Shown: piece by piece, positions 5,261 through 61,479 of the stretch
Numbering within the stretch: position 1 is the first letter of the stretch
How the letters are laid out: the number at the start of each line of letters is the position of its first letter
Assembly (NCBI RefSeq): GCF_004010195.1
Contig: NC_057753.1
Location: 8,910,806 to 8,974,805, forward strand
From: Chiloscyllium plagiosum
Lineage: Eukaryota
Reading direction: 5' to 3'
Length of the DNA: 64,000 nt
Notes under the pieces: generated by a model
What the model saw: only the letters and a program-made list of their open reading frames with translations
What the model was told of the DNA's origin: nothing
Database searches by the model: none
Translations under genes and position numbers: made by a program

Positions 5261-8200
5261 CGTGCATGCAGGGTTCATGAATGATAGATTTCCTGCCTTA
5301 AAAAGGACAGTTTCTGGAGAAACACAATAGTTCTGGTAGCATCTATGAAGAGACAACAGTGTTCCTGCTTTGAGTCCAGTGGTCCTTCAAAACTTCGCTG
5401 GATTCAAAACATTAACTGGTTTCTCTCCACAGATGCTGCCAGACCTGCTGTGTTTCCCCAGCAATTTTGCATTTTGTTGCTGATCTCCAACATCTGCAAT
5501 TCATTATTTTAGTGAATAACTGTTTCCTGGTTGCCAGGACCGAGAGAAACTTTCACTTCCAGATCTTTTTATTAGTTGAACATAAATTCCACCAGAAGCC
5601 ATGATGGGATTTTAAATTGTGTTCTCAGAAAACCGAAATCTCTAGGTTGCTCAACCATCATCGCTAGATCCCAATCTTCCCTTCAAAGGCAACTTTCTCC
5701 TGTCTATTGTCCTATATTCATTCGTGGGAGATCGCACTTTGTCTCCCACTATTGTTCTGGTTAACATCAACTTCACATTCCCACTGTTTCCCCATTATCC
5801 TCAATTCCCTTTCTGATTTAAAAAAAAAAATCTTAGTTTTGAATGCACTTAACAATCCAGTCTCAACAGCTGTCCTAAACATGCAATCCCTTATTTGCAG
5901 GTTCTGCCCTTTGGTTCTAAACTCACCCACAAGGGTAAACTTTCCCACATCTAGCCTGTCACGTCTCCTCAGAATCTTGTTTGTGACAATAAGGTTACCT
6001 CGAAATCTTCTAACTTCTATTAACCACAGGCACAACCTATTCATTTCTCCTCATAAGACATTATTTCCACCCCTGATATCATCCTGGTCAACCTTCTCTG
6101 GACTGTCTCCAATGCCAGTATATCTTTCCTGAGCTAAAAGGCCGACAACTGTTCCCAGTGTTCAGTTCTGGCATAATTGGTGTCTTAATTACCTATTACT
6201 CACTGAACTTGGATGAAGTGTTCATGGATGCGAGCTTGCAAATCCTCCTATTCAGCAGCTTTCTCCATTTAACATTCAGCACTTTTCCTCCTGGCAAAGT
6301 GCACAACCTCATTTTCCCACATTCTATTCAATCGGCCAAGGTTTTGCTCATTTGCTTAACCTGTCGATATCCCTCTCCATGTCATCCTCACCACCTGCAT
6401 TCCAATCAACTGTCTCTACTGCAATCTTGGCAATAGTACATTCATTTCACATATCCAAGTAATTCATATACATATTGTAAATAATTTTGGTCCCAGCACT
6501 GATCCCTGTGGCACATTGCTAGTTACAAGTTGCGATCCTGAACATGCCCCTTACCCCTACTGCATCATTGGTTAGCCAATCATCTATCCATACGCTTAGA
6601 GTGTCTCCAATATCATGTGAATATCATTGGCTCTGCCAGCAAGTCTTCCCAAACCGTCCTTGAAAAGGTGATGGTGAGTTGCCTCTTAAATTGATTCACA
6701 AATATGATGTGGTCTATAATAAAGGTTCAGGAGCGAGTTCCAGGATTTTGATCAATAACATCAAAGTAATGCGTATATGTCACAGTTGGAATGTTGTGTT
6801 CACACTTATCTCCTCTTGGTGGTTGAAGTGATGGAGTGGAAGTTGCTTTTGAAGAGCTGTCGCTCATATAATCAAGCCAGACAGATCGATTGTGGCCAGA
6901 GACTCTGCCATTTTGACTTCTCATCAATCTACATTCTTTCCATCCAAGTTTTAGTCACATCAAACTGCCACGCAATGCTGTTATGGCCTCAGTAAACTAT
7001 AATAACGTTAAGATCGCTGGGATGATTTTCTACATCCGACTGCAATATAAACACAGATCACTGTTTCCAGTTTTGGTGGAACAAAAGACATCGTATTGGT
7101 GGATAATTGCAGTTAGTGCAAACACAGCTCGCCATCGATTAAATATTAATCCTGTTCACTTCAATGGCCAAATTTCAATTCAGAAACAAGTGCTGCTTGT
7201 AACATAGACAACATGACAAAATGGCTCATAGGAGGAGAAATGGGGCATTGAGGAGGAGTGAAATGTTTGCTTTTGGTCACCTCCACAATTGTTAGAAAAA
7301 CAGTTTGAAAGGATTCTTAAAATGTGGCTGAAGTAGTGATGTGGCATAACACTTCAGACAGCGCAAAGTGGAAGACCACTTTCTAGTGGAAGAAAAAGAC
7401 ATTTCTTATTTCTGAAGGAACTGGGAAAGAGACGAGGGGATGAAATCTGACTTGGGAGCTATTTCCTATTTGTTGAGGAAGTTGCTTTATCACAGTCTCG
7501 GTTTCGAGCATAAGCTCTCCACCAGGATTAAAGGGTTGCCCAAGGGGGCTGATAGATCAATGGGAAGGAAGTGGGGCAGGAGGGAAGGCAACAGGGAGTG
7601 CAACAGATAGATGGAGGTAGGGATTGATGGTGATAGATCAGAGATGAGGGTGGAGCAAATAGGTGAGAAGCAAGGTGGACAGGGCCTGCAGGTCAAGAGG
7701 TTGGTATCGAATTGGAAGGTTGGATCTGGGACAAGGTGGGGGAGAGGAAACTGATGAAATCTACATTGATCCCTTGTAGTTGGAGGGTCCCAAGGCAGAA
7801 GATGAGGTGTTTTTCCTACAAGCGTCGGGTAGCAAGAGTTTGGCAGTGGAGGAGACCCAGGACTTGCATGTCCTTGGTGGAATGGGAGGAGGAGATAAAG
7901 TGTTCAGCACAGGCGGTCGGTCGTTCAATGACCCAGAGCTGTTCGGTGAAACATTCTGCTTGTTGGCGTCCAGTTTCCCCAATGTGGATGAGACCATATT
8001 GCGAGCAATGGACATAATATTATAAATAGATTGCATAAATCTTAGCCTGCCGGAGTTATTTTCTTGAAGTAAATTAAAGAAAACTTTAATTAAATTGGGT
8101 GACTGCATGAAACGGTTTGATGGTCAGATTTGAATCATCACTCCCAAATGAGACAATGCCATGAATATCAGTGAACTGCTCTTTTGTTAAAAACCACAAG

Positions 8201-10062: not shown

Positions 10063-10599
10063 TCTGCACTACTTTTGTCACTAACGAATGGCAGAATAGA
10101 CTAAACAGGCCGAATGGCCTAACTTCTGCTCCGATGGTCTTGCGGTCTTAGGTTGCTCTGGATCATTTCATTGGCAGTGTGCAGTCCCGGGCTTAATGAG
10201 CAGCAATGTGCACTGAAAGCAAAACTCATAGGATCGTAGAACTCCTACAATGTGGAAATAGGTCCTTCAGCCCAACACATCTGCACTGATCTTCTGAAGA
10301 GTAACCCAATCAGATCCATTTTCCAACCCTCCATAAATTGCACACAGACCCCCAAGGGTGGAATTATTCCTGGGTTCCTGGTGCCATGAGGCAGCAGTGC
10401 TAACCCTCAGCCACCATGGGAGCTGAGATGATGGATAGATCAGCCATCATCTGAATGAATAGTGGAGCAGTCTCGCCTGTCCTCGGATGCTGCCTGAATT
10501 GCTGTGCTCTTCCAGCACCACTAATCCAGATCCTACTCTCCCACTGCACCAACTGTGAGAACTGGCAGCAAGTTCAGTTCTGGGGGGTGACCCAAGGAC

Positions 10600-11050
10600 G
10601 CATCACCAGTGGGATCTGATTGCTGGGAGCGCTGGTGCTTCCGCAAGTTGCAGGAAAACATGAACCTCTTCCCGCACTCAGGCCAACTGAAGGGCTTCTC
10701 CACGGTGTGGATACATTGGTGCTTCAGTCGGGTGGAGGAATTGCTGAAGGCCTTCCCGCACATAGGGCAACTGAACGACATCTGACCAATGGGCCAGTAG
10801 GTCGGAGGAAAGAGCAAAGCCATTCCTGCACTCGGGGCAGAAGAACAGCCTCTCCTCAGTGTGGATCCACTGGTGTCTCAGCAGGTGGGAAGAACTGCTG
10901 AAAGCCATCTCGCACTTGGGGCCAGAGATCAGCCTTCCCCGGTGTGGACCAACTGGTACGTCAGCAGGGCAGAGGAATCACTGAAGGCCTTCCCACACTC
11001 AGGGCAGTAGAAGGGCCTCTTCCCTCTGTGGACCCATTGGTGCTTCAGAA
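10600..11050 (-). pseudogene. C2H2 zinc-finger pseudogene (5'-truncated, frameshifted)
   Basis: [13 protein letters not shown] motifs are split across ORFs 10929-11204, 10678-10908 and 10533-10823. Confidence 0.9.
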
Positions 11051-12400
11051 TCCTTTCAAATTTCACAGTATCCTTCTGATAGGAGGGAGACCAGAATTGC
11101 ACACGATATTCCCAAAGTGATCTAACCAATGTCCTCTTCAGCCACAACATAACTTCCCAACTCCAATACTCAGTCAAAGGATTGCAAAAGCTTTCAAAAC
11201 ACACAAAAAAACAAACAGGAAAGAATGGTGGGACAAACCGAATTTTTGAAAGTCAGCTTAGAAGCATCAATGAGAAATCGGCGGACTGGGTTTATTGGGT
11301 ACCCGTTCTACTTAAATACACTATATACGTATTTCTCTTGTGTTCTTCGTAGTTTCTCTGAGCTGCAGTGTGTAGTGGCTCATTAAAATAATGTCCTGAT
11401 GCAGCTTCGTTTGTGGGTGTTGGGATGATTGCTTCTGTGGTTAAGCACTTGGTTTGTGCGTGTTGTTTTTCTGTAGACGCTAGTTTGAAGTTCCCCATTG
11501 ACTGTTCGCTCCACTGTGACATCTAGGAATGGCACTTTGTTGCTGTTCTCCTCCTCTTCAAACCAGAAGCCCCCCTCAGGCCATAGTCTCACTAATTGGA
11601 ACACCAATATACAGACTAGTCAAAGGCCTCCACTGAAGACTAAAACACCAAGTCAAGATTCACGCCACTCCAGTTACTCCATCCAAGAATTCCTGAACAC
11701 CAAAGACACCAAGATAGAAGAGGATGGAATAATGATGTCCTTTGACACAACAGCCCTATTCACATCCATTAACATCAACGTGGCCAAAGAAAACTGGAGA
11801 CACTACTCGAAGAACCAAAGACACAAACACAGCACCAACTTCATCAGCAAAGATAGCACTATCCAGCTCGTGGAACTGTGCCTTACCTCCCACTTCATAT
11901 TCAGTAACTAGCCCTACAAGAAAATGAACGAAATACCCATGATACCACCAGTATCAGGATTCCTAGCAGAAGCAATAATGCAGAGGCTCAAACAAACAGC
12001 TCTTCCAACGATCCAACCCAAACTTTGTTGTCCGCCACAGTGATGACACTTCTGTCATCAAAAAATGAAGCAAATTAGAGAAAACCTACAACACCTTCAA
12101 CAATATCCTTACTGGGATAAAATTCAAAAAGGAAAACAACAACAAAGTGCCATTTCAAATGTCACAGTCGAGCGAACAGTCAATGGTAAATTCAAAACAG
12201 CGTCTACAGGAAAACAACACACACGAACCAAGTACTTAGCTACAGAAGCAATGATCCCTCCACATACAAACAAGCCTGAATCAGGACACTATTTCAACGA
12301 GGCACGACACACTGCAGGAGCCAGTAACGACGAAGACCAATAAGTAACTGAACAGCGCATTTAAGGAGAATGGGTAGGCAAAAGATCCACTGATACTTGC

Positions 12401-12500
12401 TTCGCTGACCGGGAATCGAACGCGGGCGGCAGCGGTGAAAGCGCCGAATCCTAACCACCGAATCCTAACCACTAAATCCTAACCACTAGACCACCAGGGA
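12401..12500 (-). pseudogene. tRNA-Glu(TTC) pseudogene with internal D-arm triplication
   Basis: rc starts TCCCTGGTGGTCTAGTGGTTAGGATT. aatcctaaccac occurs three times; anticodon TTC. Confidence 0.9.
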
Positions 12501-12537
12501 GACAGCCGCGCCGTATGACAGATGTACTGAAAATTGC

Positions 12538-12578
12538 TTCCCTGCCCGGAAATCGAACCCAGGCCACGATCGTGAGAA
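12538..12578 (-). pseudogene. 3' half of tRNA-Glu(CTC); paralogs at ~46441-46468 and ~54828-54865 (+)
   Basis: rc reads CTCACGATCGTGGCCTGGGTTCGATTTCCGGGCAGGGAA, followed by gcaatttt. Confidence 0.8.
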
Positions 12579-13253
12579 GGCTTCCACCAATGTCATTGGT
12601 TGTATCCATTGCTCCCGATGCGGTCTCCTCTACATTGGGGAGAATGGAGACTCCTCGCAGAGTGAAGTCACAGCGCTTGAGGGAACATCTCCAGGACACC
12701 CGCACCAATCAACCCCATCACCCTCTGGCCCAACATTTCAACCCACCTCCCACTCTGCCGAGGACATGCAGGTCCTGGGCCTCCTCCATCGCCGCTCACT
12801 CCCCACCACATGCCTGGCGGAAGAACGCCCCATCTTCCGCCTCGGATAAATTCAACCCCAGGACATCAATGTAATGTGGACTTCACCAGTTTCCTCATTT
12901 CCCCTCCCCCCACCTTACCTCAGTTCCAACCTTCCAGCTCAGCGCTGTCCTCATGACCTGTCCTACCTGCCAATCTCGCTTCTCAACTGTCCGCACCACC
13001 CTCCCCTCTGACCGGTCACCTCCATCCCCACCCCCATTCAACTATTGTACTCTTTGCTACCTTCGGCCCAGCACACCCCACACCCAATTTATCTCGCCAC
13101 CCCTTGAAGTGTCCTGCCTCTATTCCTGATGAAGGGCCTTTGCCCGAAACGTCGATTTTCCTGCTCCTCGGAAGCTGTCTGACCTGCTGTGCTTTTCCAG
13201 CACCACTCTGATTTAAACTCTGGTTTCCAGCATCTGCAGTCCTCACTTTTGCC
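12579..13253 (+). mobile_element. 3' part of a second Penelope-like family (GIY-YIG remnant plus terminal region); related pieces at 7490-8000, 25296-25560, 45772-46420, 51000-51530, 63880-64000
   Basis: STNVIFCIHCSRC..IGET and LREHL..HF remnants. The terminal region carries a hammerhead-like motif. Confidence 0.75.
13122..13157 (+). ncRNA. Minimal hammerhead ribozyme motif (Penelope-associated)
   Basis: CTGATGA-AGGGC-CTTT-GCCC-GAAAC-GTC: catalytic boxes, stem II and a GUC cleavage triplet. Confidence 0.65.
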
Positions 13254-14413
13254 TACCCAATAAACCCAGTGTGACGATTTCACATCAACAAACTGACACA
13301 AGCAGACACAACGTCTGCAGAAACCCTCGCCACATTACTTTACATTAAAGACATCTGTGAAATGATTTCCAGACAACTCAAGCCTCTCAGCATTAAACAA
13401 CGGCTAGTGAACCTTAAATAACCTACACAAACAACCAGCAAACGAATGTTATTTACAAAATACCATACAAGGAAATATATACATGAACTCTGCCGCACAG
13501 TTCTCTGTGGCAAGAAATGCTGGGATGAGATAAGGAAGATTTTTTCAGCCAAAACGAATCGGCACTAACTGGACAGCCATTTACAATCACCCCTGTCAGC
13601 CCAGGATGGAAGACCCGAAGGGATGAACAGTTTTCTTATTTCCTGAAGATTTACAAAGCTGAGACTGGGTTTTGGCGTTTCTTCCCTTTCCACTCCCAGG
13701 AGCCTCAGTGGTTGGGGCGGTGAGTAGGCGAAAGTGAAATGTGCCCGTGAGCAGCGTGTGGGGCTATTTCAGCTTCCCCTTCTCTGACAGCGCTGTGACG
13801 TGCCTCTGATGTTCTCAGGGACACTTACTGACGCGAGACAGTGAAAAGAGTCTGGTTCCTGCAGATCAGGAATTCAAACCTTATGCCGGCTTCAGGACAA
13901 TGAGAAAGATTAATTGGGGTGTGAGAAGAAGCTGTGAGCTGCATTTCAAACAGGAAGGTGGAGTCAGATGCGTCTCCATTGCGCCCCTGGCACTGTGCGT
14001 ACCTGACGCCGCCATGATGCAGAGTTCTGACGTTACAACGGACATGCACAGCAATGGGAACATTGACAAGGTGAACAGCCAAAGATAATCACCGTCACTG
14101 CTTCCCTTCCATCGTCCCAACTTTGTGAAGCAGTATCTTTCACTGGCAAATAAAACACCTTTGACCTCAGGTGCCTGCTTCATTTCGATCACGACTTCAC
14201 TCCCCTCACTGTTCTAGTCTCATTTCCAAACACTTGGCTCATAGCCTCAAAACCAGCTCTGTGGGTATCTGCTTGTTGCACCCTGACAAGCAGTGGGTTG
14301 CAGATTCCCGACCAGTCCCAATGTGATTGAAATATTTCAACCCCTTCACTGATTTGCATCTTTAAAAAAAAACGTGGAGCAATCTCCCTTTCTTTTTGAC
14401 GACAGTTCTCAAC

Positions 14414-14496
14414 TGTACTCGGCAGGGTTCACACCTGCGTGGGGAAACCGCAATGGATTTCATGTCCATCGTATTCGCCATTCGGCCCACCAATAC
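14414..14496 (-). pseudogene. tRNA-Ser(TGA) pseudogene
   Basis: rc contains GATGGACATGAAATCCATTGCGGTTTCCCCACGCAGGTGTGAACCCTGCCGA, a Ser body with long variable arm. B box degenerate. Confidence 0.8.
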
Positions 14497-14991
14497 AGAA
14501 CCACACTGACAGCTTCATTTCCCAGGTCTCTCTGCCTGTGGAGCTGAGAAAGAGTGAATCATTGCAGAGTTTGTTTGAATCCAATCACTTCACAGGTTTC
14601 GAAAGGGTTAAATATCTGCAAATGGCGTGTCTGGGTGTTTCATCCCGAAAGATGAAATGGACGATCAGTTAAAAACAAAACCAGAAATGGCAGGAGCAAC
14701 TCAGCAGGTCAGGCAGCATCTGTAGAAAGAGAATCAGAGACAACATTTCAGAACTCTTTTTTTTCCTCATCCAGGTACAGCCAAACCTACTGAGTTGCTC
14801 CAGCAGTTTCGCTTTCTGTCTCGGACTCTCAGCATCCGAAGTCCTTTTCGTTAGAAATTCAATCAATTCAGAAACCCCTTTGTGCTTCCTCAGTGGAAAA
14901 GATTTCCGTTTGAGAAACATTTTCCTGACACCATTAAAAACGCGCATCTTTGCAGCCAATAAAGCCGTAGGAGCGAGAACAACAAACGCTC

Positions 14992-15065
14992 CGTCCCTGG
15001 GTGGTCTCGAATCACCAACCTTTGGCTTAACAGCCGAACGCGCTGACCAATTGCGCCACAGAGAC
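14992..15065 (-). pseudogene. tRNA-Asn(GTT), probable pseudogene
   Basis: rc GTCTCTGTGGCGCAATTGGTCAGCGCGTTCGGCTGTTAAGCCAAAGGTTGGTGATTCGAGACCACCCAGGGACG; anticodon-stem mismatches. Confidence 0.85.
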
Positions 15066-16439
15066 AGGTCCGAGCCGTCCTCCACAGTCTCGTTGAGGAA
15101 GCTACTATTCAATTCATAATTCAACCTGCCCCGCCCAGAATTACCATTGCCTTCTGTCAGTTTTACTTTTCATAATAAAGCCTTGGACATTCATTGTGGA
15201 GACATGGGGTCAGTCTGATCCCACCATCTGCAGGCACATCCATGTCACGAGGAACTAGCTCTCCTACACCGGGGCCATCGCCCTCCGATCCTTTCAGTGT
15301 TTTGCCTCTTCCCGAATTTTCTTATTGGCCCCGAGCCGAGAAGGGGTTTGAATTCCTGATGTGCAGAGTATTCTTTCAATGCCTCGGGTCACTTCATGTC
15401 CTGAGAATATCAGAGTCAATATCCCGGCCTCTTTAACAAGGGGACAGTGTCAGGACTGTCTCTGCTCAGTCGGACAGTTCATCTTTCTTCTCCTCGAATT
15501 CCACTTCCCAAAGAGTTTCCAAAGATGCACAAAGCTGGAGACTGGGATTTCTGTTTTACTTCCTGAACATTATTCCACCTGCTAACTGACAATATTTTGA
15601 CAAAACCGCTTCCCCATTGTAACATTTGCATCATGTCCAGGGGTGAGCAATTTCCATTTTGTGGAGACATCCCAAGTTTGGAAATGTTCTCTTTGGAGCA
15701 AAGAAGGTTAACTGGAGATTTCCAGAGGCTTTTGTCAATGATGGGAGAAGACGTGGTGGGAATGGGCAGGTTAATGATCAGAAGAACCCATTGCCACTGA
15801 CTTGGGTCAGTAACCAGAGGACAAGGATGAAGTTCTTTAATGGAAAGCAGCACTTGTGTAGAACAAACACAACGAATACTGCAGAAAGCCAACGGGTCGA
15901 GCAGCGTCTGTGGAAAGGTAAACAGAGCCGACGTTTTGAGTGTGCTACGGCTTTTGTTCAGAACTCAGTGTTTTGCCTCTTCCCGAAGTTGGTCCAGGTC
16001 TGTATCTCAATTGGCAAACACATGGCAAGTGCAGTGCCGCAATGTGAAGTTATAGCCTTTGCTGTTTTAAAAAAAGAAGTGCATTGTTTAAATGGTGAGA
16101 TATTGGAATGTGGAAAAAGTGAGGACGAGAGGTGAAAGTCGAAAAATGTGGTACTGGAAAAGCACAACAGGTCAGGCAGCATCTGAGGAGCAGGACAATG
16201 AACGTTTCGGGCACAAGCCCTTCAACAGGAATGATGTATGGATGTACAAAGGGGTCACAGAGTCCCTCCACACCAGTCAATGCCTGTTGTCAGGCAGATG
16301 CAGCAGGCAATGAGCAAGGCAAGTGGTATATTACGAAGAGGAATTCAGTTCAGAAGTGGGGTCATTGAGTTTTGAACAACAAGAAGTTCATGGTTATGGG
16401 GGGAGGTAAGAAAATGGTTTTAAGACCAGTACAGGTCAG

Positions 16440-20900: not shown

Positions 20901-21454
20901 GTCTGTCTTGATGTTTTCACTTTTTGGTCTCTGTAAGATCCTGAATCAGTACCATCGGGAGAATTAATTTGAGTGGGGTGAGAATAGAGGGGTGAGAGGG
21001 GGTGGGATGGTGCTTTCAATTTTGTGGAAAAAGAAAAAAATGATCTGCGGAAAGTAGAATTGCTTGTTTGGAATTTCTAACCTGGACTGACAGTGATGAC
21101 TTTTGTAATCTCTTTTTACAGATTATTTGTAGATCTGAAGACGGAAGTTTCAATATCAATAGCTGAAGGGCTTTGCCTGAAACATTGACTCGACTGCTCC
21201 TCAGATGCTGCCTGATCTGCTGTGATTTTCCAGCATTGCACTTTGACTCTGACCTTTCAGCATTTGCAGTCCTCAATTTCACGTCAATGTCTGACAGTCA
21301 CTGAATCCATCGGGACTATAACAAATTTCGACTATGATTCTGTGAGAAGGAACCAAGCTTTTTGGTTCCTGTTTCAGTACGTTTTCAACATCAGTGATGA
21401 ATTCACGGCAGAGAGGTGCTGTACACGCGTTTGTGTGCAGGTGAAGCTTCGGTC

Positions 21455-22114
21455 ATGGAGAAACCTAAGGAATCCCGTCCCGTGGAGAAACCGCGGAAGT
21501 GTGGCGACTGTAGGAAAGGCTTCCGTTTTCCATCTGACCTGGAGACTCATGGGCGCAGTCACACCGGGGAGAGACTGTTCTCCTGCTCTGAGTGTGGAAA
21601 GGGCTTCAGCAATTCCACCCGCCTGATGAGCCATCAGCGGATCCACATTAGAGAGAGGCCCTTCAGCTGCCCAGAGTGCGGGAAGACCTATATCAATTGC
21701 TCTGTACTGCAGAGGTAACAGCAGGTCCACACGGGCGAGAGGCCATTCTCCTGCCCCGAATGCGGGAAGGCCTTCTGCTATTCCTCCGTCCTGTTGACCC
21801 ACCGCCGGGTACACATATTGGAGAAGCCCTTCAGCTGCTCCAAGTGCGGCAAGGCCTTCAACGATACCTCTGTCCTGCTGATGAACCAGCGTGTCCACAC
21901 CGGGGAGAGTCCGTTCTCCTGCCTCAAGTGCGAGAAGGGCTTTACCCAGGCATCCCACCTTCGGGCCCATACGGGGGAGAGGCCCTTCCCCTGCCCCGAG
22001 TGCAGGCGGAGGTTCTCATGATTCTGCACCTTGCAGAAGCACCAGCGGGCACACCAGTGCTCCCAACAATCTGATTCTGCTGGTGAAACTGCTGTGAGTC
22101 ACTGCGAGGACTGA
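21455..22114 (+). pseudogene. C2H2 zinc-finger pseudogene, 7 fingers in one frame, two in-frame stops
   Basis: MEKPKESRPVEKPRKCGDC...[14 protein letters not shown] repeats. TAA at 21716 and TGA at 22019. Finger 6 is shortened. Possible splice acceptor tgtgcag at 21440. Confidence 0.9.
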
Positions 22115-23260
22115 ACCCTGCCCATTCTGACAGTGCTTATAGTGGGAGAGTCGGTCGGATTTTTTTGTTTTATGCCGTCGTGCTCCCCCACCCCCGCAAC
22201 TTTGCTTCCAGTGGGCACTGCTGCTCGTTGAGACCAGGAGCTGTTCTCTCTAGTTTTTTTCTGTCCAGTTAAAGAATTATTGGCTCTGTCTGGGAACGAG
22301 CTCCAGTCTGAAAGAAATTGCTGAATACTTCAGGGTATCCATTCACATTCAGCAGTGACTTTGAAATTAAATTTACGGTTATGTGCCTGTGAACAACTCA
22401 TATTCGAAGGATTGCCCAACGGCTTGGCAATCCATTGTCGGGAACTGATTGCTGCAATTGATAATTTTAAAAATTCTCTTCCTTAATTTACCCCTTAAGT
22501 TTCTGTCTATGGGATGGTGGAGGACTTGATCATAAGGCTTAAATCATTGCTATTAACTGGATTATCTTGTTTAACTTTGCCCTAGTAAATTTGCGGTATT
22601 CATAATTGTTTGTTCTTGTTTAAATTATAATTCTGGTGTGCAAGATCTGTTCATCAAGTGTGGTCGTCTTGATGAACTGCTGTGGGTCACTCCCAGGACT
22701 GAGCCCCTGTGCATTCTGACAATGTGTGTGCAGTGGGAGAGTCAGTGGGCTTTTTTGTTTTATGCCCTTGCCCCACCCTGCCCCGCCGCCAACTTTGCTT
22801 CCATTGGGCGTTGCTGCTTGTTGAGCCCAGCAGCTGTTCTCTCTAGATTCTACTGTCCAGTTAAAGAATTGTTGGCTCTTTCTGGGAATGAGTCCCAGCC
22901 TGTAAGAAATGGCTGAATGCTTTGCGGTGTCTGTTCACATTCAGGAGTGACTTTTAAATTAGATTTACAGTTACGTGTCTGTGAAAAACTCATAGTCCAA
23001 GTATTGCACAAAGGCTTGGCGATACATTGTGTGAAACTGTTTGTTTGAATTGGTAAGTTTTTTAAAAAAAATCTTTCTTAATTTGCCGCTTAAATTTCTA
23101 TCTCTGAGATGATGGGGGACTTGATCAAAGGGTTTAAATCATTGCTATTAATTAGATTATCGACTTAACTTTGCCCTAGAAAAGTTGCTGTATTTATTAT
23201 TGTTGGTTTTTGTTCAAATTATAATGTTGATGTGAAAGATCTGTTCTTCATCAAGTCTGG
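22085..23260 (+). repeat. Older tandem duplication (~590 bp x2) of the ZNF 3' end and trailer
   Basis: gaaactgctgtgagtcact...ctgttcatcaagt at 22085-22660 is repeated at 22672-23257 with many substitutions. Confidence 0.85.
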
Positions 23261-26570: not shown

Positions 26571-26644
26571 CGCCCCGGGGCGGGCTTGAAACATCAAACT
26601 TTAAATTAACAGCCGAACGTGCTGACCAATTGCGCCACAGAGGC
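26571..26644 (-). pseudogene. tRNA-Asn(GTT) pseudogene
   Basis: 5' half matches Asn; 3' half degraded. Confidence 0.8.
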
Positions 26645-28035: not shown

Positions 28036-28109
28036 GGCCACTGGGTGGGCCCGAAGCACCAACCCTTCGGTTAACAGCCGAACACGCTGACCAATCGCGC
28101 CACAGAGAC
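28036..28109 (-). pseudogene. tRNA-Asn(GTT), probable pseudogene
   Basis: Anticodon arm TTCGGCTGTTAACCGAA intact; acceptor and T-arm mismatches. Confidence 0.8.
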
Positions 28110-31413: not shown

Positions 31414-31487
31414 CGCCCCAGGGTGGGCTCGAACCACCAACTCTTCGGTTAATAGCCGAATGCGCTGACCAATTGCGCCACAGAGAA
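31414..31487 (-). pseudogene. tRNA-Asn body with ATT anticodon
   Basis: rc ...TTCGGCTATTAACCGAAGAGTTGGTGGTTCGAGCCCACC...; B box intact, acceptor stem mismatched. Confidence 0.8.
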
Positions 31488-34731: not shown

Positions 34732-34760
34732 CGCCCCTGGGTGAGTTTGAACTACCAACT
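34732..34760 (-). pseudogene. 3' fragment of tRNA-Asn, truncated by a Penelope-like sequence
   Basis: cgcccctgggtgagtttgaactaccaact lies at the expected array position, then switches abruptly to GIY-YIG-coding DNA. Confidence 0.75.
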
Positions 34761-35004
34761 TCATTCTGGACGAAGGACCGATACCCAACATGAGCAAGAC
34801 GAATGTAGTGTTCAAAATACCATGCAAGGACTGCACAAAACACTATATAGGACAAACAGGAAGACAGCTAACAATCCGCATACATGAACATGAACTAGTC
34901 ACGAAACGACACGACCAGCTATCCTTAGTAGCCACACACGCAGACCACAAGCAACATGAATTCGACTGGGACAACACTACCATTATAGGGCAAGCCAGAC
35001 AGAG
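34761..35004 (+). mobile_element. Penelope-like GIY-YIG endonuclease fragment, open frame
   Basis: NVVFKIPCKDCTKHYIGQTGRQLTIRIHEH is a PLE-type GIY-YIG motif with CxxC; CpGs retained. Confidence 0.85.
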
Positions 35005-37462
35005 GAGAAAGTGAGTCTGCAGATGCTGGAGATCAAAGTTGAAACTTTATTGCTGGAACAGCACAGCAGGTCAGGCAGCATCCAGGGANNNNNNNNNNNN
35101 NNNNNNNNNNNNNNNNNNNNNNNNNNNNNNNNNNNNNNNNNNNNNNNNNNNNNNNNNNNNNNNNNNNNNNNNNNNNNNNNNNNNTTTTGGGGAGACATTC
35201 CCAAGGTTGGGAATGTTCGCTTTGGAGCAAAGAAGGTTAACTGGAGATTTCCTGGGGCTGTTGGTAATGATGGGAGAAGAAGCGGTGGGAATGGGCAGAT
35301 TAATGATCAGAAGAACTAATTGCCACTGACCAGAGTCAGTTACCAGAGGACAGGAATTGAAGATCTTGAATGAAAAGCAGCACTTGTGACTAATAAACAC
35401 AGAGAATACTGCAGAAAGCCAACAGGTCGAGCAGCATCTGTGGAAAGGTGAACAGAGCTGTCGTTTTGAGTCCGGGACGTTGTTTGTTCAGGACTCGAGA
35501 TTCCTGCATGGCGATAAATTCCCAGACATGAGAACATTCTTTTCTTTTTCCACAAAATTGAAAGCACTATCCCACCCCCTCTCACGCCTCTATTCTCACT
35601 CCGCTCAAACTAAATCTCCCGACGGTACAGATTCAGGATCTTACAGAGACCGAAAAGTAAAAACATCAAGGCAAACACCTCTGAATTTTGGATACCTCCA
35701 CCTGAAAGTTAGTGTCTTTCCAGACATCTAGGAGTGAGTAAGTCTGATTTTGGGAAGCAAATAAAAGTGTCAATACAGGATGAACTTTCAATGCAGCTTC
35801 TTGAGAAACAACCAGACACGAAATGGTTAATATCTGGGGAGGTAGAAGTGGGGAGATGGGGGAAATGAGATATCAAGGCATTAGCACCGACACCAGACAG
35901 AAACTGAATATACAGGCATGGCAAACATTACGGGCAAGCCAGAGTCATAGAGATACACAGCACAAAAACAGGTCCTTCAGCCCAAATCATCCGTGCCGAC
36001 CAGATAGCCTAAAGTAATCTCGTCTCATTTACCAGCACTTGACCCATATCCCTCTGAACTCTTCCTATTCATATACCCATCCAGATGCCTTTTAAATGTT
36101 ATAATTGGACCTACATCCACCACTTCCTCCGGCAGACTATTACTTACACTTGCCTCCCTCACCCCAAACATATTACCCCCCTGTTATGGACTTCTCCCAT
36201 CCCAGGGAAATGACGTTGTCTATTTACCCTATCCAAGCTTCTCATGACACTATAAATGTCTGCAAGGTCACCTCCTCAGCCTCTGGTATACCGGGGAAAA
36301 CAGCTCAAGCACTGCGTTTACTTTTGGGTTCACATTCACTGAACCTTCCTCCCATGTAAAACATTGTTTCCCTCCCCAACACTGTCCAGGGAAAAGCAAG
36401 GAGTTTGGAGGGTTGGGGGAATGCCAATTAGAATTCCTACAATGTGGAACACGCCATTCTGCCCAACAAGTCAACATTGACCATCCAAAGTGTAACCCAT
36501 GCAGACACATTCCCCTATCCCATTACTCGACATTAACTGTACACTGTGGGCCCATTTCGTATGGCCACTTCAGCCAAAACTGCACGTTGTTAGATTTTGA
36601 GAGGAAACCCACGCAGACACGGCAGGGAGAATGTGAAAACTCCGCACAGACAGTCGCCCCAAGGCTGGAATCGAACGCGGATTTTTGGTGCTGTAATACA
36701 GCAATGCTAACCACTAATCCATCGTGCTACCTCCGTGCACAAAAAGAGGTGGGGATTGGGAACTTTGTTAATTGTATCACATAGTGGATTGTTGAGTAAG
36801 GTTAAATTTCACGGGATCCAGGGAGAGCGAACCAACTGGGTACAAAATCTAGAAGCGCATTGTTGTAGATACTGGAATCCTTCCTGAAAACAACAATGCT
36901 GGAGATCACAGTGGGTCAGGCAGCGCTGTGCTACACTATGACTGGATAGTGTGGATGTGGAGATGATGTTTCCACTAGAAGAAGGGTTGAAGATGCCAAG
37001 TCATTGAGAGCATTTAAGACAGAGATAGATTCTTGATTAGGAAGGGGTCAAGGGTTATGCGGAGAGGGCAGCAGAATGGGATGGAGAAACATATCAGCCA
37101 TGATCGACTGGTGGAGCAGACTCGATGGGCCAAATGGCCTCATCCTGCTCCTGTGTATTATGGTCTTAAAGCTGGGCAGATGCCTTAAGGGGTTCTCACA
37201 AACTATTTCAGAATCCTGAAGAGGAATTGTTGGACTCGAAAGTTTAACTCCGCTTTTTCTCCACATATGCTTCTCGTCCTGCTGAGTTTTTCCAGTGTTC
37301 TCAGTTTTTGTTTCAGATTTCCAGCATCCACAGTTCTTTGTCTTATTTATCACAGTCATTTCTTGCCCTTCCCAAGTGTCTGGAACTTCATATCTCTGAT
37401 CTACAAACTGTACACTTACCATAGAAATGAACACTACCTCCTTATTAGAGTAGATTCCTTTG

Positions 37463-50247: not shown

Positions 50248-53200
50248 TTGCTCAATGTCTCCGTAAGCTGCTTTCATTTGCAAAGGTGCTCTGTTCTGTA
50301 TCTTGCCTTTGCATCTGCTTCCCAAATCTTCTTCAGTGGAGGAGTGGCAGTGCCAACAATCCCCCGGAGCTGGAGGAAGGTCCGAGCTTCAAAAAGCGGG
50401 GGGTAAGGTTGGAGGTTGGATTTGCTCAAGGTTTGTATCTATTAACTTATTCAAATGGTACCAACTGTATGGTGCTATGGTTTACATTAAAACTGGAGGA
50501 TCATATCAGAGTGTTTATATTTAGCAGTGGTAGTTCATAAAATGCACTCCCTGGAGGAGCACCCTCTATGATGCAGCATTTCTTGCCTTATGCCCTTCCC
50601 CCATTTCTTATCTCCCATCTTGATTTTATTTTTTTTTTGGTCAAATTAATTTCATATTAATCAGTCTTGGTATTCACTCTGTGCTATTAATTTGTTTGTT
50701 CGAATATTGTAAGTCAAAATTAATGCTGTAATTTCATATCTGATGTCAGAGTTTGACATTGAATATGCAGGTGTGAATACCAGTAAGTTGTGAAAATGCA
50801 TCAAGAACTTGTGGTTTTTTAACAAAAAGGGCAGTTCACTGATATTCATGGCATTGTCTCATTTGGGAGTGATGATTCAAATCTGACCAACATACCGTTT
50901 CACGCAGTCACCCAATTTAATTAAAATTTTCTTTAATTTAGTTCAAGAAAATGGCTCCGGCAGGCTAAGATTTATGCTATCTATTTATAAGATTATGTCC
51001 ATTGCTCTCAATATGGTCTCATCCACATTCAGGAAACTGGACGCAAACTTGCGGAATGTTTCAGGGAACAGCTCTGGGACTGTGAAACTAAACGACCGAC
51101 CGCTCTGTGGCTGAACACTTTACCTCCCCCTCGCATTCCACCAAAGACATGCAAGTCCTGGGACTCCTCCACTGCCAAACTCTTGCTACCCGACGCTTGT
51201 AGGAAAAACACCTCACCTTCTGACTTGGGACCCTCCAACCACATGGTATCAATGTAGATTTCATCAGTTTCCTCATTTCCTCTCCCCCAACTTGTCCCAG
51301 ATCCAAACTTCCAATTCGACACTAACCTCTTCATCTGTCATACCTGTCCACCTTGCTTCTGACCTATTTGGACCAACTTCATCTCTGATCTATCACCATC
51401 AATCCCTACCTCCATTTATCTATTGCACTCAAAGTTACCTTCCCTCCAGCCCCACTTCCTTCCCATTTATCTCTCAGCCCCCTTGGGCCACCCTTTATTC
51501 CTGATGAAGAGCTTATGCTCTAAACCAAGACTGTGATGAAGCAACATCCTCAACAAATAGGAAATAGCTCCCAAGTCAGATTTCATTCCCTCTTCTGTTT
51601 CCCAGTTCTTTCAGAAATAAGAAAATGATCTTCCACTTTGCGCTATCTGATGTATTATGCCACATCACTACTTCAGCCACCTTTTAAGAATCCTTCCAAC
51701 CTGTTTTTCTAACAATTGTGGAGGTGACCAAAAGCAAACATTTCACTCCTCCTCAATGCCCCATTTCTCCTCCTATGAGCCACTTTGTCATGTTGTGTAT
51801 GTTACAAGCAGCCGAGTGCACTTGGTTTCTGAATTGAAATTTGGTCATTGAAATGATCAGGATTAATATTTATCGATGGCTAGCTGTGTTTGCACTAACT
51901 GTAATTGTCCACTAATATGATGTCTTTTGTTCCACCAAAACTGGAAACAATGATCTGTGTTTATATTGCAGTCGGATGTCGAAAATCATCCCAGCGATCT
52001 TCACGTTATTGTAGTTTACTGTGGCCATAACGGCATTGCGTGGCAGTTTGATGTGACTAAAACTTGGATGGAAAGGATGTAGATTGATGAGAAGTCAAAA
52101 TGGCAGAGTCTCTGGCCACAATCGATCTGTCTGGCTTGATTATGTGAGTGGCTGCACTTCAAGAGCAACTTCCACTCCATCACTTCAACCAGCAAGAGGA
52201 GATAAGTGTGAACACAACATTCCAACTGTGACATATACGCATTGCTTCGATGTTATTGATCAAAATCCTGGTACTCGCTCCTGAACCTTTATTATAGACC
52301 GCATCATATTTGTGAAGCAATTTAAGAGGCAGCTCACCACCATTTTTTCAAGGACGGTTTGGGAAGACTTGCTTGCAGAGCCAATGATATGCACATGATG
52401 TTGGAGACAGTCAACTCGTATGGATAGATGATTGGCTAACCAATAATACAGGAGGGATAAGGGGCATGTTCAGGATCGCAACTTGTAACTAGCAATGTGC
52501 CACAGGGATGAGTGCTGGGGCCAAAATTATTTACAATATGGATAGGAATTACTTGGATAAGTAAAGTGAATGTACTCTTGTCAAGACTGCAGTAGAAATA
52601 GTTGATTGGAATACAGGTGGTGAGGATGACATGCAGAGGGATATCGACAGGTTAAGCAAATGAGCAAAACCTTTGCCGATGGAATAGAATGTGGGAAAAT
52701 GAGGTTGTGTACTTTGCCAGGAGGAAAAGTGCTGAATGTTAAATGGAGAAATCTGCTGAATAGGAGGATTTGCAAGCTCACATCCATGAACACTTCATCC
52801 AAGTTCAGTGAGTAATAGGGAAGGCAAATGGGAGGTTGGCCTTTAAATGGAGTATAAAAGTAGGGAGGTTATAGTGAACCTATATCAGACACCAATCAGG
52901 CCACAACTGAACACTGGGAACAGTTTTGGGCCTTTTAGCAAAGGAAAGATATACTGGCGTTGGATGCAGTCCAGAGAAGGTTGACCAGGATGATATCAGG
53001 GATGGAAATAATGTCTTATGAGGAGAAATGAATAGGATGTGCCTGTGGTTAATAGAAGTTCGAAGATTTCAAGGTAACTTTATTGTCACAAATAAGATTC
53101 TGAGGAGACGTGACAGGCTAGAAGTGGGAAAGTTTCCACTTGTGGGTGAGTTTAGAACCAGAGGGAATAACCTGCAAATAAGGGATTGCATGTTTAGGAC

Positions 53201-54900: not shown

Positions 54901-54972
54901 TCCCTGGTTGTCTAGTGGTTAGGATTCGGCGCTTTCAGCGCTGCGGCCCGGGTTCGATTCCCCGTCAGGGAA
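54901..54972 (+). tRNA. tRNA-Glu(TTC), possibly functional or a young pseudogene
   Basis: Full cloverleaf with anticodon TTC, one T-stem mismatch and T at position 9. Followed by gcaaTTTT terminator. Confidence 0.7.
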
Positions 54973-55976: not shown

Positions 55977-56640
55977 CTGAAGCTCCAATGGGTCCACAGA
56001 GGGGAAGAGGCCCTTCTGCTCCCCTGAGTATGGGAAGGCCTTCAGTGATCCCTCTGCCCTGCTGACGCACCAGTTGGTCCACATCGGGGAAGGCTGTTCT
56101 CCGGCCCCAAGTGCGAGATGCCTTCAGAAGTTCTTCCCACCTGCTGAGACACCGATGGGTCCACACTGAGGAGAGGCCATTCTTCTGCTCCGAGTGCAGG
56201 AAGGGCTTTGCTCTTCCCTCCGACCTACTGACCCATGGGTCGGATGTCGTTCAGTTACCCTATGTGCAGGAAGGCCTTCAGCAATTCCTCGGCCCTGCTG
56301 AGGCACCAGTCCATCCACACCGGGGAGAAGCCGTTCTCCTACCCCGAATGTGGGAAGGTCTTTACCCGCTCCTCCACACTGCTGAAGCACCAGCTGGTCC
56401 ACACGGGGGAGTGGGGGTTGGGGAGGCCATTCTGCTGCCCTACGTGCGGAAGGCCTTCAGCAATTCCTCCTCCCTGCTGAAGCATCAATGTGCCCACACC
56501 GGGGAGATGCCCTTGAGTTTGCCCGAGTGTGGGAAGAGGTTCAAGTTTTCCTACAACTTGCGGAAGCACCAGCGTGGGCACCAGCGCTCCCAGCAATCAG
56601 ATCCTACCAGTGACGCGGCCTTCGGTCACCCCCCAGGACT
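55977..56640 (+). pseudogene. C2H2 zinc-finger pseudogene (paralog, most fingers retained)
   Basis: ORFs 56111-56683 and 56235-56480 contain [14 protein letters not shown] and related motifs; frameshifted. Confidence 0.9.
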
Positions 56641-57337
56641 GAACCTCCTGCCAGTTCTGACAGTGGGTGCAGTGGGAGAGTAGGTGGGCTGTTTTTGTTT
56701 TCTGCTGGACTGCAATAGCCTCCCCCACCCCCCATAACCACAACTCATGGTGGCTCAGGTTTAGCATTGTTGCCTCATGGCACTAGGAACCCAGGAATAA
56801 TTCCACCCTTGGGGGTCGATGTGCAATTTATGGAGGGTCGGAAAGTGGATCTGAGTCGGTTACGCTTCGGAGATCAGTGCAGATGTGTTGGGCTGAAGGA
56901 CCTGTTTCCACATTGTAGGAGTTCAACCATCCTTTGAGCTTTGCTTTCAGTGGACACTGCTGCTCATTGAGCGCGGGACTGCACATTGCCAATGAAATGA
57001 TCCAAAGAAACCTAAGACCGCAAGACCATCGGAGCAGAAGTTAGTCCATTCGGCCCGTCGAGTCTACTCTGCCATTCGTTAGTGACAAAAGTAGTACAGA
57101 TAAGATTAGCTACAGTGTGGAAACAGGCCATTTGTCCCAACAAGTCCACACCGACCGTCCGAAGAGTAACCCATCCAGACCCATTTCCTTCTGACTAATG
57201 TACCTAAGTCTATGGGCGATTAAGCATGGCCAATCCACATAACCTGCACATCTTTGGTTTATGGAAGAAAACAGGACCACCCAGAGAAAACCCACGCAGA
57301 CACTGGGAGAATGTGAAAACTCCTCACAGACAGCCAC

Positions 57338-58938: not shown

Positions 58939-61479
58939 GAAAGGCACACGCGCACAGACTGAGAGGCGTGCGCACACAGAGACANNNNNNNNNNNNNNNN
59001 NNNNNNNNNNNNNNNNNNNNNNNNNNNNNNNNNNNNNNNNNNNNNNNNNNNNNNNNNNNNNNNNNNNNNNNNNNNNNNNNNNNNNNNNNNNNNNNNNNNN
59101 NNNNNNNNNNNNNNNNNNNNNNNNNNNNNNNNNNNNNNNNNNNNNNNNNNNNNNNNNNNNNNNNNNNNNNNNNNNNNNNNNNNNNNNNNNNNNNNNNNNN
59201 NNNNNNNNNNNNNNTCAACTGCCTTCTAGCATGTAGTCACAATTACTCTGTCCAAGGGCCATGAGGGACAATGAGCAAATGTTGGATGTGCTCGCAATCA
59301 TCACATCCCACAAAATATTTTCTCATAACTGAAAAAAAACCATAGATTAATAAAGGACAGCCAAAACAAAGTGCTATGGGAAAGTCATGCCCAACTAAGT
59401 GATTTGCTTATAGGTGTATTTTTTAAAATCCTCTTCAGGGAAGACATTGATTACACCACTGTTGGAATACTGCATGCAATTCTGGGCTCTCTGCTGTAGG
59501 AAGGAAGTTACAAAACTTGAAAGGGTTCAGAAAACATTTACAAGGATGCTGCCATGGTTGGAGGGTTTGAGCTAAAGGAAGAGGCTGAATCGACTGGGTT
59601 CATTTTCCCGGAAGTTTTGTAGGGTGAGGGGTGACTTTATAGATGTTTATAAATTCATGAGGGCATGGATAGGGTAAATAGGAAAGGTCTTTTACCTGGG
59701 GTGGGAGAGTCCAAAACTAGATTGCATAAGTTTAAAGTTATTGGCAAATGGAGTTTAATATAGCTATGTGTGAGGTCTTACATTTTGTATCGTCAAATCA
59801 ACGTAGGATTTACATGTGAATGTTAGGACCTTGAGTGTAGTTGAACAGAGGGATTTTGACGTTCAGGTTTTTGTACACAGGACTTCATCAGAGATGGCAT
59901 TCAGTTTAATAAACCAAATTAAAGGAGAGATATGCACGAAATATGAACGTCTACCAACAAGCACCAAATCTGTTTCATATTCCGTATTTTGAACCAAGAG
60001 ATCTCGGGTTTCGGGTTATTAGCTCCTAGAAAATGGAGTCGTGGGTAGACAGGGTGGTGAAGAAGGCTTTTGGCATGCTTGCTTTCATTGGTCAGAGCAT
60101 TGAGCACAGGTATTGGGGCGTCTTGTTGCAGCTGTCACACGCCACACAACAACGATAGGCGTGACGCTGCCCCCCTCTGACTGGCTGTCCCTTTGAATAT
60201 CTGGGGGAAGATTAGACCCACCTGCCTGTGTTTGGCTCATATGTACTTATCCAAATAATTTTAAACATTGTAACATTTCCTGCATCACCACTTCCTCTGA
60301 CAGTTCATTCCACAGATGAACCACCTTCAATGCAAAAAACGTTGTCCCCACCCGCACCCCGTCCTTTTTAAATCTTCTCCCTCTCATCTTAAAAATATAC
60401 TCCCAAATTTTGATCTCCCCTATCCTTCGGGAAAAGACAAAGGTTATTCACCTTATCTTTGTCCCTCGTGACTTCATAAACCTCCATAACCTCCACCCTC
60501 AACCTTCTACACTCCAGTGAAAAAAAGTCCCAGCCAATGCCGTCTATAAATCATTCTGGCAACATCATAGTTAAAAAAGGTGAGCTTTAAGAATTGACTG
60601 AAAGGGCAGTGAAGATTCAACTAGCTGACAGTGGATCTGAAATCACATGTAGATCAGGCCAGGCTCGGACAGCAGGAAACCAGAAACGTTTTTACAACAA
60701 ACCACAACCGTTTCATCATTAGACTCTTAATTCCAGATTTATATTGAATTCAGATTCCACCATCTGCCGTGGCAGGTTTTGAACCCAGGACCCCAGAACA
60801 TTACCTGGGTGAATAGTCTGGTGACAATAAAGTCGACCATCACCTCCCCAGAACACATTGGCATATTGTGTTTAGAGGTAACAGAGGAGCAAGAGGTTTC
60901 AGCCGCTGCTAAGTTGTTGATGTGACACAAGGGAACATCAGCACTCTCAGTAATGGCACATCCTGAAGCCTGGACCCTGTTTCAGAGGTAAGCGCTCGGG
61001 AACCATAAGAAATAGAAATTGGAAAATGCCATTCAGCCCCTTTAGCCTGCTTCTCCATTCAGTAGGATTGTGGCTGACCTGACATTTCCCACATGCACTT
61101 TCCTGCCCTTTTCCTGTAAGTGTTCATCCCCCGACTGATCACGAATCTATCGATCGTAGTTTTAAATGTGACATGAAGGCTGTCAATAGAGTTACTTGGA
61201 TGGGGGAGAATGGGGAGGGGGGGGCGGGGGGGGGGGCTCAGGTCGAACTTGGGGACTAAAACAATGGCTTCACACTTCACAATATCTAACTAAGGGAATG
61301 TTTATAGATGATAGTTAAAATTTCCTGAAGAAGGGCTTATGCCGGAAACGTCGGTTCTCCTGCTCCTTGGATGCTGCCTGATTTGCTGCGCCTTTCCAGC
61401 AACACATTTTCAGCTCTGATCTCCAGCATCTGCAGTCCTCACCTTCTCCGAGAGAGTCCCATGGAGTCTCACAGAGTGA

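What the first reader, a model, noticed from the sequence alone, without database searches (positions are those of the whole stretch)
12375..13255. 877-bp tRNA-Glu-carrying cassette with TA duplication and 8-bp inverted termini inside a Penelope RT
Seen: the RT sequence aatgggTA|cccaataaac is split by 12377-13253, which begins GGCAAAAG, ends CTTTTGCC and has TA on both sides. The uninterrupted site is visible in the element's own inverted copy (rc aacgggtacccaataaac at ~11290; also ~47670). The cargo is one full and one half tRNA-Glu plus a Penelope 3' end with a hammerhead motif. Inference: this is either a non-autonomous TIR-type cassette that mobilised tRNA genes, or a Penelope-mediated transduction with short inverted termini. 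Paralogs (45772-46602, ~54995) keep ggcaaa-like ends but have lost the clean TA.
Basis: partly seen in the sequence, partly recalled or inferred. Interest (0 to 1): 0.72.

Follow-up and report, generated by a model that had tools for sequence, protein, structure and literature searches.

The report
tRNA genes co-inserted with Penelope retrotransposon
A Penelope-type retrotransposon piece and one and a half backwards-facing tRNA genes seem to have been pasted together, once, into an older retrotransposon in a shark-like genome and then copied along with the surrounding DNA; it is not a new DNA transposon, but it may show a retrotransposon creating a working tRNA gene copy.

Summary
The 877-bp insert is real in copy A: TA on both sides, 8-bp inverted ends, splitting a Penelope-like RT. 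It is not a TIR cassette. All three copies in the window sit at the same host site inside 85-90% identical segmental duplicates, so they record one old insertion. The right end is in register with the normal 3' end of a second, Neptune-type Penelope family (4 of 5 independent insertions). The left 'inverted terminus' lies in a 13-nt zone that is 51% identical among the copies, against 90% in the host; B and C match it 3/8 and 6/8. That zone matches the host sequence right of the insert at 24/39 positions, suggesting a decayed ~15-bp target-site duplication. The data favour this over a true inverted end only mildly (odds 0.3-5 with all copies, 19-97 without A). The cargo is a tRNA-Glu 3' half starting in the anticodon loop, plus a whole gene with genomic leader and trailer, antisense to the element. 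It resembles twin-primed tRNA/LINE-1 chimeras, here with a Penelope element. A's 'full' tRNA is broken by a 28-nt duplication; B's is intact.

The parts
11245..11552 (-). Inverted arm of the older (host) Penelope/Poseidon-type element; holds the uninterrupted target site (NGY-PIN codons)
   Evidence: 78% identical to 12130-12389; tblastn to P0003 aa 196-296; translation
11553..12374 (+). Host element, decayed RT, left of the insertion
   Evidence: tblastn to P0002/P0003/P0006, E down to 1e-58. The same segment of paralog B finds RVT_1 proteins named for Stegostoma tigrinum at 63-64%
12375..12389 (+). Probable left copy of a ~15-bp target-site duplication, heavily mutated; contains the 8-bp 'inverted terminus' of copy A (12377-12384)
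   Evidence: The 13-nt zone matches the right-flank host at 8, 7 and 9 of 13 in A, B and C; 5/13 invariant columns against 609/693 in the host, P=3e-5
12390..12400 (-). Genomic 3' trailer of the whole tRNA-Glu gene (T4 terminator, decayed in all three outer copies); no CCA
12401..12500 (-). Whole tRNA-Glu gene; in copy A a pseudogene with a 28-nt tandem duplication in the D-arm region
   Evidence: blastn to the B gene, alignment; not called by ARAGORN or Rfam
12501..12537 (-). Trailer of the half gene (with intact T4) and ~25-nt leader of the whole gene
   Evidence: Trailer 39/39 and leader 30/68 pairwise identity among A, B, C (bin edges about 2 nt off)
12538..12577 (-). 3' half of a second tRNA-Glu gene, positions 33-72, starting in the anticodon loop, head-to-head with the Penelope fragment
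   Evidence: blastn positions 33-72, 87.5%; ungapped comparison
12578..13253 (+). 5'-truncated second Penelope-like element (Neptune-type by the Cys-rich linker of its relative): GIY-YIG remnant, 3' UTR/pseudo-LTR, natural 3' end
   Evidence: Relative P0007 (RT + GIY-YIG, named Chiloscyllium punctatum), 54% identity; 3' end in register with other insertions
13126..13150 (+). Hammerhead-like core motif in the pseudo-LTR; activity untested
   Evidence: pattern match; the stem between the two core motifs folds in B; no Rfam hit
13254..13268 (+). Right copy of the target-site duplication (host sequence, well kept)
   Evidence: Positions 3-15 identical in A and B; 27/30 over the 30-nt flank
13254..13470 (+). 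Host element continues (RT thumb/linker to the start of its endonuclease)
   Evidence: tblastn to P0003 aa 277-350
45772..46601 (-). Paralog B of the insert, at the same host site; intact tRNA-Glu(CTC) at 46506-46577
   Evidence: 10638-14500 aligns to 48361-44517 at 85.8%; ARAGORN call and Rfam 51.7 bits
54626..54996 (-). Paralog C, left part only; tRNA-Glu(TTC) at 54901-54972
   Evidence: 12046-12776 aligns to 55308-54626 at 81.5%

Best explanation
One old retrotransposition event. A Neptune-type Penelope-like element nicked an older Penelope RT at the NGY-PIN site on both strands about 15 nt apart. It copied its own RNA from its natural 3' end and stopped inside the endonuclease gene. In the same event a tandem tRNA-Glu segment (3' half, trailer, leader, whole gene, trailer) was joined in antisense, head-to-head. 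The most likely route is twin priming: the second nick primed reverse transcription on a read-through tRNA precursor near its terminator, and copying ran to the anticodon loop of the upstream gene. The locus was then triplicated by segmental duplication. The tRNA flanks mutated fast, erasing the left TSD copy, which in copy A came to mimic an 8-bp inverted end. SHOWN: anatomy, single site, natural right end, hypervariable zone. INFERRED: the 15-bp TSD (about 0.7), a single event (about 0.85), and the route (twin priming about 0.35, 5' transduction about 0.27).
For: Same host site and junctions in 3 of 3 copies. Right end in register with the family end in 4 of 5 independent insertions. Zone versus host right flank 24/39, reached by 2e-4 of window 13-mers; B+C alone 16/26, 4e-4. 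Parsimony on ((A,C),B): the TSD costs one extra step over 13 columns (2e-4 of random 13-mers), the inverted end one extra step over 8 columns (7e-3). TSD:ITR odds 19-97 without copy A, which prompted the finding. Independent tRNA-Asn paralogs fall to 14/47 and 24/50 identity just upstream of the gene, as described for active tRNA genes (PMC6130373). [quoted passage not shown] A purified Penelope protein cuts and extends both strands (PMC11167929). Pol III read-through at tRNA genes is common (10.1101/2025.10.17.683076).
Against: With copy A included the odds are near even: 0.06-0.8 with no stem branch, 0.3-5.3 on the (A,C) tree. In simulation a TSD ancestor gives a perfect 8/8 inverted end in about 1e-4 of trials, so this reading needs a coincidence. 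All three copies share G at the first zone column, where the host has C. B was scored ungapped; two indels would give it 6/8. The Asn control is much less variable at the matching 3' distance (76-86%) than the Glu zone (51%). Penelope TSDs in the paper read are 8-10 bp (PMC3846280), and TSDs of the other short copies here were not readable. The cargo extends about 3 nt past the terminator and holds a 3' half, whereas the L1 chimeras mostly hold nt 1-37. The TSD test was devised after seeing the three copies.
Confidence: 0.6

Rival explanations
1. Same single event and TSD, but the cargo came by 5' transduction. A truncated Penelope first landed in the anticodon loop of a genomic tRNA-Glu array. 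An antisense read-through RNA crossing the tRNA genes into that fragment was later mobilised in trans through its pseudo-LTR and truncated just past the trailer. (Counted inside the 0.6 above as the other route.)
For: The cargo has genomic leader and trailers and no CCA. Pseudo-LTRs can carry host DNA in trans in Adineta (PMC3846280). The window holds an in-place analogue: a tRNA-Asn 3' piece in its native flank, head-to-head with a truncated Penelope-type fragment at 34735-35005.
Against: Both cargo ends fall at tRNA-meaningful places (anticodon loop, about 3 nt past the terminator), which random truncation would seldom give (my estimate, not computed). No donor locus in the window.
Confidence: 0.27
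2. The 8-bp inverted end is real and made by Penelope: the second nick first copied a few bases of the element's own 3' end (a minimal inverted pseudo-LTR), then switched to the tRNA template; the TSD is only TA.
For: A matches 8/8 and C 6/8; first eight columns 17/24, reached by 3e-4 of window sequences. An inverted-end ancestor is 130-2900 times likelier than an unrelated one with all copies. Inverted 5'-truncated partners are typical of these elements (PMC8557442), and the host here has one.
Against: B+C alone give 9/16, and only 3-15 times over unrelated. It leaves five further columns unexplained that match the host at 10/15; an ITR ancestor reaches 24/39 against the host in 2-6e-4 of trials. 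It needs an extra template switch and a 2-bp TSD. Inverted arms in the paper read are about 180-210 bp.
Confidence: 0.2
3. DNA-level event: a piece of a tRNA array that already held the Penelope fragment was pasted into a staggered break by repair synthesis or ectopic recombination.
For: The cargo is genomic in character, and the window is a mosaic of rearranged duplicates.
Against: The right junction falls on the element's natural end, which a repair patch has no reason to do.
Confidence: 0.1
4. Non-autonomous cut-and-paste (TIR) element with TA duplication that carries tRNA genes.
For: Copy A alone has TA on both sides and perfect 8-bp inverted ends.
Against: No copy at a second site (3 of 3 at one site). 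One end is a retroelement end. The inverted repeat is only 8 nt, with no subterminal similarity, and B and C lack it.
Confidence: 0.03

Closest known systems
Twin-primed tRNA/LINE-1 chimeric insertions (PMC13174262; passages and section 11 read)
   Same: tRNA piece antisense at the 5' end of a retroelement, break near the anticodon loop, one event; their TSDs (9-19 bp) bracket the 15 bp inferred here
   Different: The partner is a Penelope-like element, not L1. The cargo is a 3' half plus a whole second gene with genomic leader and trailers; L1 chimeras mostly hold nt 1-37 of one tRNA. The whole gene is intact in two copies.
Penelope-mediated mobilisation of host genes in Adineta vaga (PMC3846280; parts 1-3 of 5 read)
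   Same: Host DNA carried with pseudo-LTR sequence into a new site with a TSD; Penelope inserted into Penelope
   Different: There the cargo is framed by two or three pseudo-LTRs, with an 8-bp TSD and a verified empty allele. Here there is one pseudo-LTR, a Pol III cargo and no empty allele.
Inverted 5'-truncated partner copy of Penelope-like elements (PMC8557442, PMC2377424; passages)
   Same: Head-to-head geometry at the 5' end; the host element here shows it (11245-11552)
   Different: The inverted partner is a tRNA tandem, not a second element copy
Tc1/mariner-type non-autonomous elements with TA duplication (recalled, not from a call)
   Same: TA on both sides and inverted ends, in copy A only
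   Different: No dispersed copies, only 8 nt of inverted repeat, a retroelement 3' end, not conserved in paralogs
tRNA-derived SINEs with a LINE-type tail (recalled, not from a call)
   Same: tRNA sequence 5' of a retroelement 3' end
   Different: The tRNA is antisense, so its promoter cannot transcribe the unit; one insertion site only

Membership tests
Non-autonomous TIR DNA transposon (TA-TSD type) | Copies at unrelated insertion sites with both ends | tested here: not met
   3 of 3 copies in the 64-kb window lie at one host site; the rest of the genome is not held
Non-autonomous TIR DNA transposon (TA-TSD type) | Terminal inverted repeats conserved among copies | tested here: not met
   8/8, 3/8 and 6/8 in A, B and C ungapped; no extension past 8 nt
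Non-autonomous TIR DNA transposon (TA-TSD type) | Cognate transposase with matching ends | not testable with these tools
   No genome held
EN+ Penelope-like element (inserted fragment) | GIY-YIG endonuclease C-terminal to an RT | tested here: met
   The fragment matches aa 350-486 of P0007, which has RVT_1 and GIY-YIG hits, both below Pfam's cut-off; the window fragment alone had no Pfam hit
EN+ Penelope-like element (inserted fragment) | Hammerhead in the pseudo-LTR | tested here: inconclusive
   Core motif in A and B; no Rfam hammerhead hit
Neptune clade (inserted) versus Penelope/Poseidon clade (host) | Cys-rich linker between RT and EN in Neptune; RT phylogeny | tested here: inconclusive
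   Linker seen by eye in P0007 and not in P0006 (criterion from PMC3846280); no tree built
Twin-primed chimeric retro-insertion | Cellular RNA piece antisense at the 5' junction | tested here: met
Twin-primed chimeric retro-insertion | One TSD flanking both parts | tested here: inconclusive
   24/39 match; odds over a true inverted end 0.06-5.3 with A, 19-97 without
Twin-primed chimeric retro-insertion | Cargo derives from RNA, not DNA; no donor locus with the same junction | not testable with these tools
   No CCA, and genomic flanks present: fits a precursor RNA or DNA equally
tRNA-derived SINE | Sense-oriented Pol III head driving the unit; many dispersed copies | tested here: not met
   Antisense orientation; one site

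The most novel reading that the evidence does not exclude
A Penelope-like element used its two-strand priming to copy a read-through, two-gene tRNA precursor as the inverted partner of its own RNA, and so planted a complete tRNA gene, with leader and terminator, that went on being transcribed at the new site (intact genes in B and C, eroded leaders). That would be a retrotransposon route to working tRNA gene copies and a genomic sign that the inverted arm of Penelope insertions is primed on a separate RNA.
Probability: 0.25. Interest if true: 0.55.

Novelty: new variant of a known kind. Interest (0 to 1): 0.3.

Why it matters
How Penelope-like elements make their inverted 5' arms is still open in the papers read. 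A host RNA standing in the place of that arm would point to separate priming at the second nick, and can be tested in the existing in vitro system. A whole tRNA gene moved this way, and apparently used afterwards, would add a route for tRNA gene gain in shark repeat clusters. The practical lesson holds either way: fast mutation beside tRNA genes can erase a TSD and fake 'TA + TIR' signatures, so paralogs must be checked. It is one old insertion, not an active family, which limits its weight.

Tried and rejected
Whole-genome search: no genome is held. Scan of metagenome contigs with the element's last 24 nt: 0 matches, uninformative for a shark repeat. Sequencing-run search: 20 of 24 listed rows hold part of the stretch, best share 0.40, none half; no RNA holder listed; no read or contig evidence was obtained, so none is used. 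Rfam for the hammerhead: no hit at gathering or E<=10. Pfam on five window frames: one weak RVT_1 hit, four blank. TSDs and empty sites of the five other short family copies (four insertions): no readable TSD beyond a 5-nt candidate at 21.2 kb, and no spanning empty site. TSD of the host element: nothing above 7 nt. The idea that the left TTTT is the tRNA terminator: rejected, since the terminator lies in the trailer nearer the gene. The idea that the left zone is native tRNA spacer: the internal spacers match it poorly by eye, but the true array flank is unknown. RNA ligation or simple template switching: rejected because they give sense orientation (PMC13174262). Earlier scan notes by place, words and sequence: nothing on this locus. 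Paper searches listed no title or abstract start on a Penelope/tRNA chimera; the library is limited to open-licence PMC and bioRxiv.

Full report
Observation. The inverted match stops at 8 nt inward and runs 6 nt outward only because the target site is palindromic. The insert splits a decayed reverse transcriptase at its NGY-PIN codons. The uninterrupted site is seen in three copies of the host's inverted arm; these are 78%-identical paralogous arms, not an empty allele. Two details need correcting. A's 'full' tRNA-Glu has a 28-nt internal duplication and is called by neither ARAGORN nor Rfam, while B and C hold intact genes with CTC and TTC anticodons. The hammerhead is a core motif only: 2 matches against 0.49 expected, and no Rfam hit.

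Setting. Relatives of the host RT are named for Stegostoma tigrinum (63-64% identity), and the one relative of the inserted endonuclease for Chiloscyllium punctatum (54%), so this is most likely a carpet shark (inference). One relative of each element has RT followed by GIY-YIG, with sub-cut-off Pfam scores (P0006, P0007). They are different families (35% identity in the endonuclease). P0007 has a Cys-rich linker, which PMC3846280 gives as the Neptune mark; no tree was built. The window is a mosaic of segmental duplicates: the block holding A aligns to B at 86-88% and to C at 82-93%. All 3 copies of the insert lie at the same host site with the same inner junction, so they record one insertion, not mobility. 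A and C share an 11-nt deletion that B lacks; B keeps codons matching P0007 there, which suggests ((A,C),B).

The right end. Five independent insertions of this family could be compared (seven sequences; A/B and 16k/42k are duplicate pairs). Four end in register at the same CC; the fifth is too decayed. Only A and B carry the exact letters CTTTTGCC; the others carry a close variant. So the right 'terminus' is the retroelement's own 3' end in a subfamily spelling. I could not confirm that spelling outside this locus (one search found nothing).

The left end. Pairwise identity among A, B and C is 850/949 in the host RT, 463/530 in the endonuclease remnant and 196/216 in the tRNA body, but 20/39 in the 13 nt after the left TA and 30/68 in the tRNA leader. 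Only 5 of those 13 columns are invariant (P=3e-5). Against the inverted end, the copies score 8/8, 3/8 and 6/8. Against the 13 host bases that follow the right TA they score 8, 7 and 9 of 13, a total reached by 2e-4 of window 13-mers. That suggests a ~15-bp target-site duplication whose left copy has eroded. The case is not closed. With all three copies the odds of TSD over inverted end are 0.06-0.8 without a stem branch, 2.4-3.9 with one, and 0.3-5.3 on the (A,C) tree. Without A, the copy that prompted the finding, they are 19-97. Either reading needs a coincidence of order 1e-4, B was scored ungapped, and I devised the TSD test after seeing the copies. I weight the TSD at about 0.7 because it explains 13 columns at the cost of one parsimony step where the inverted end explains 8, and because it needs no extra template switch (inference).

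Control. Four of the five whole tRNA-Asn paralogs were aligned (five pairs, the near-identical pair set aside). Identity falls to 30/50, 14/47 and 24/50 in the 30 nt upstream of the gene, against 76-96% further out. This fits the flank divergence of active tRNA genes in PMC6130373 (passages). Against my reading, the Asn 3' flank at the distance of the Glu zone stays at 76-86%, and the 25/45 dip at the half-tRNA junction is not explained by that pattern. Gene conversion from other tRNA-Glu genes could also vary leaders and anticodons.

Cargo and mechanism. Read on its own strand, the cargo is tRNA positions 33-72, trailer with T4, a ~25-nt leader, a whole gene and a second trailer, without CCA. 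It is antisense and head-to-head with the truncated element. [quoted passage not shown] A purified Penelope protein cuts and extends both strands and starts internally on RNA without homology to the target (PMC11167929, parts 1-2 of 4). Read-through at tRNA terminators is common in human cells (10.1101/2025.10.17.683076, passages). I therefore commit to twin priming on a read-through precursor (about 0.35). The close rival is 5' transduction from a donor array (about 0.27): pseudo-LTRs carry host DNA in Adineta, with 8-10-bp TSDs (PMC3846280, parts 1-3 of 5), and the window has a donor-like junction, a tRNA-Asn 3' piece head-to-head with a truncated Penelope-type fragment at 34.7-35.0 kb. A true minimal inverted arm (0.2), a DNA-level patch (0.1) and a TIR element (0.03) follow. 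Inverted 5' partners are described in PMC8557442 and PMC2377424 (passages). PMC9977147 and 10.64898/2026.07.22.740005 were seen as passages and added only that such TSDs vary in length and that sharks carry these hammerhead repeats. No supplements were opened.

Novelty and verdict. Six searches listed no paper on a Penelope/tRNA chimera, within a library of open-licence papers and judged from listings. The parts are all known: antisense tRNA chimeras for L1, host-gene carriage for Penelope, fast-mutating tRNA flanks. The combination, with a whole gene that may have stayed active, is a new variant of a known kind. It is a single old event, its mechanism is inferred, and no genome or read data were available to test other flanks or a donor locus. 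Interest 0.3; the boldest reading has probability 0.25 and would merit 0.55.

Noticed in passing
window 34735-35184: The 3' piece of a tRNA-Asn paralog, in its native duplicated flank, abuts head-to-head a 5'-truncated Poseidon-type endonuclease fragment (34778-35005), which is itself hit by a 3' end of the second Penelope family and then an N gap; the missing tRNA half could lie in the gap.
   Followed up: partly
window 14992-15065, 26571-26644, 28036-28109, 31414-31487, 43958-44031: Five tRNA-Asn paralogs; called anticodons differ (GTT, ATT, TTT called 'Lys', one enlarged loop), and the 20 nt upstream are near-random among copies while further flanks are 76-96% alike.
   Followed up: partly
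window 11245-13470: The host element has a typical inverted 5' arm, but both its outer ends are internal to the ORF and no TSD was found; the arms are 78% alike.
   Followed up: partly
window 12568-12582 and paralogs: The half-tRNA/Penelope junction is hypervariable (25/45) although it lies about 70-80 nt upstream of the whole gene, while the trailer between is invariant (39/39); unexplained.
   Followed up: no
window 46506-46577 and 54901-54972: Paralogous tRNA-Glu genes from one insertion differ in anticodon (CTC in B, TTC in A and C): point change or gene conversion.
   Followed up: no
window 10530-11050, 21560-22195, 47927-48610, 55977-56730: Internally repetitive arrays that look like C2H2 zinc-finger coding sequence on the minus strand (by eye and self-alignment; no family search run).
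   Followed up: no
window 61322-61449, 42799-42919, 16113-16232, 21160-21283: Short solo copies of the second family begin within a few bases of the hammerhead core, suggesting a preferred 5' end there.
   Followed up: no
window 7501-8019 and 50993-51525: A further, more diverged Neptune-type fragment pair, about 70% identical to the insert's Penelope part and ending at the hammerhead core.
   Followed up: no
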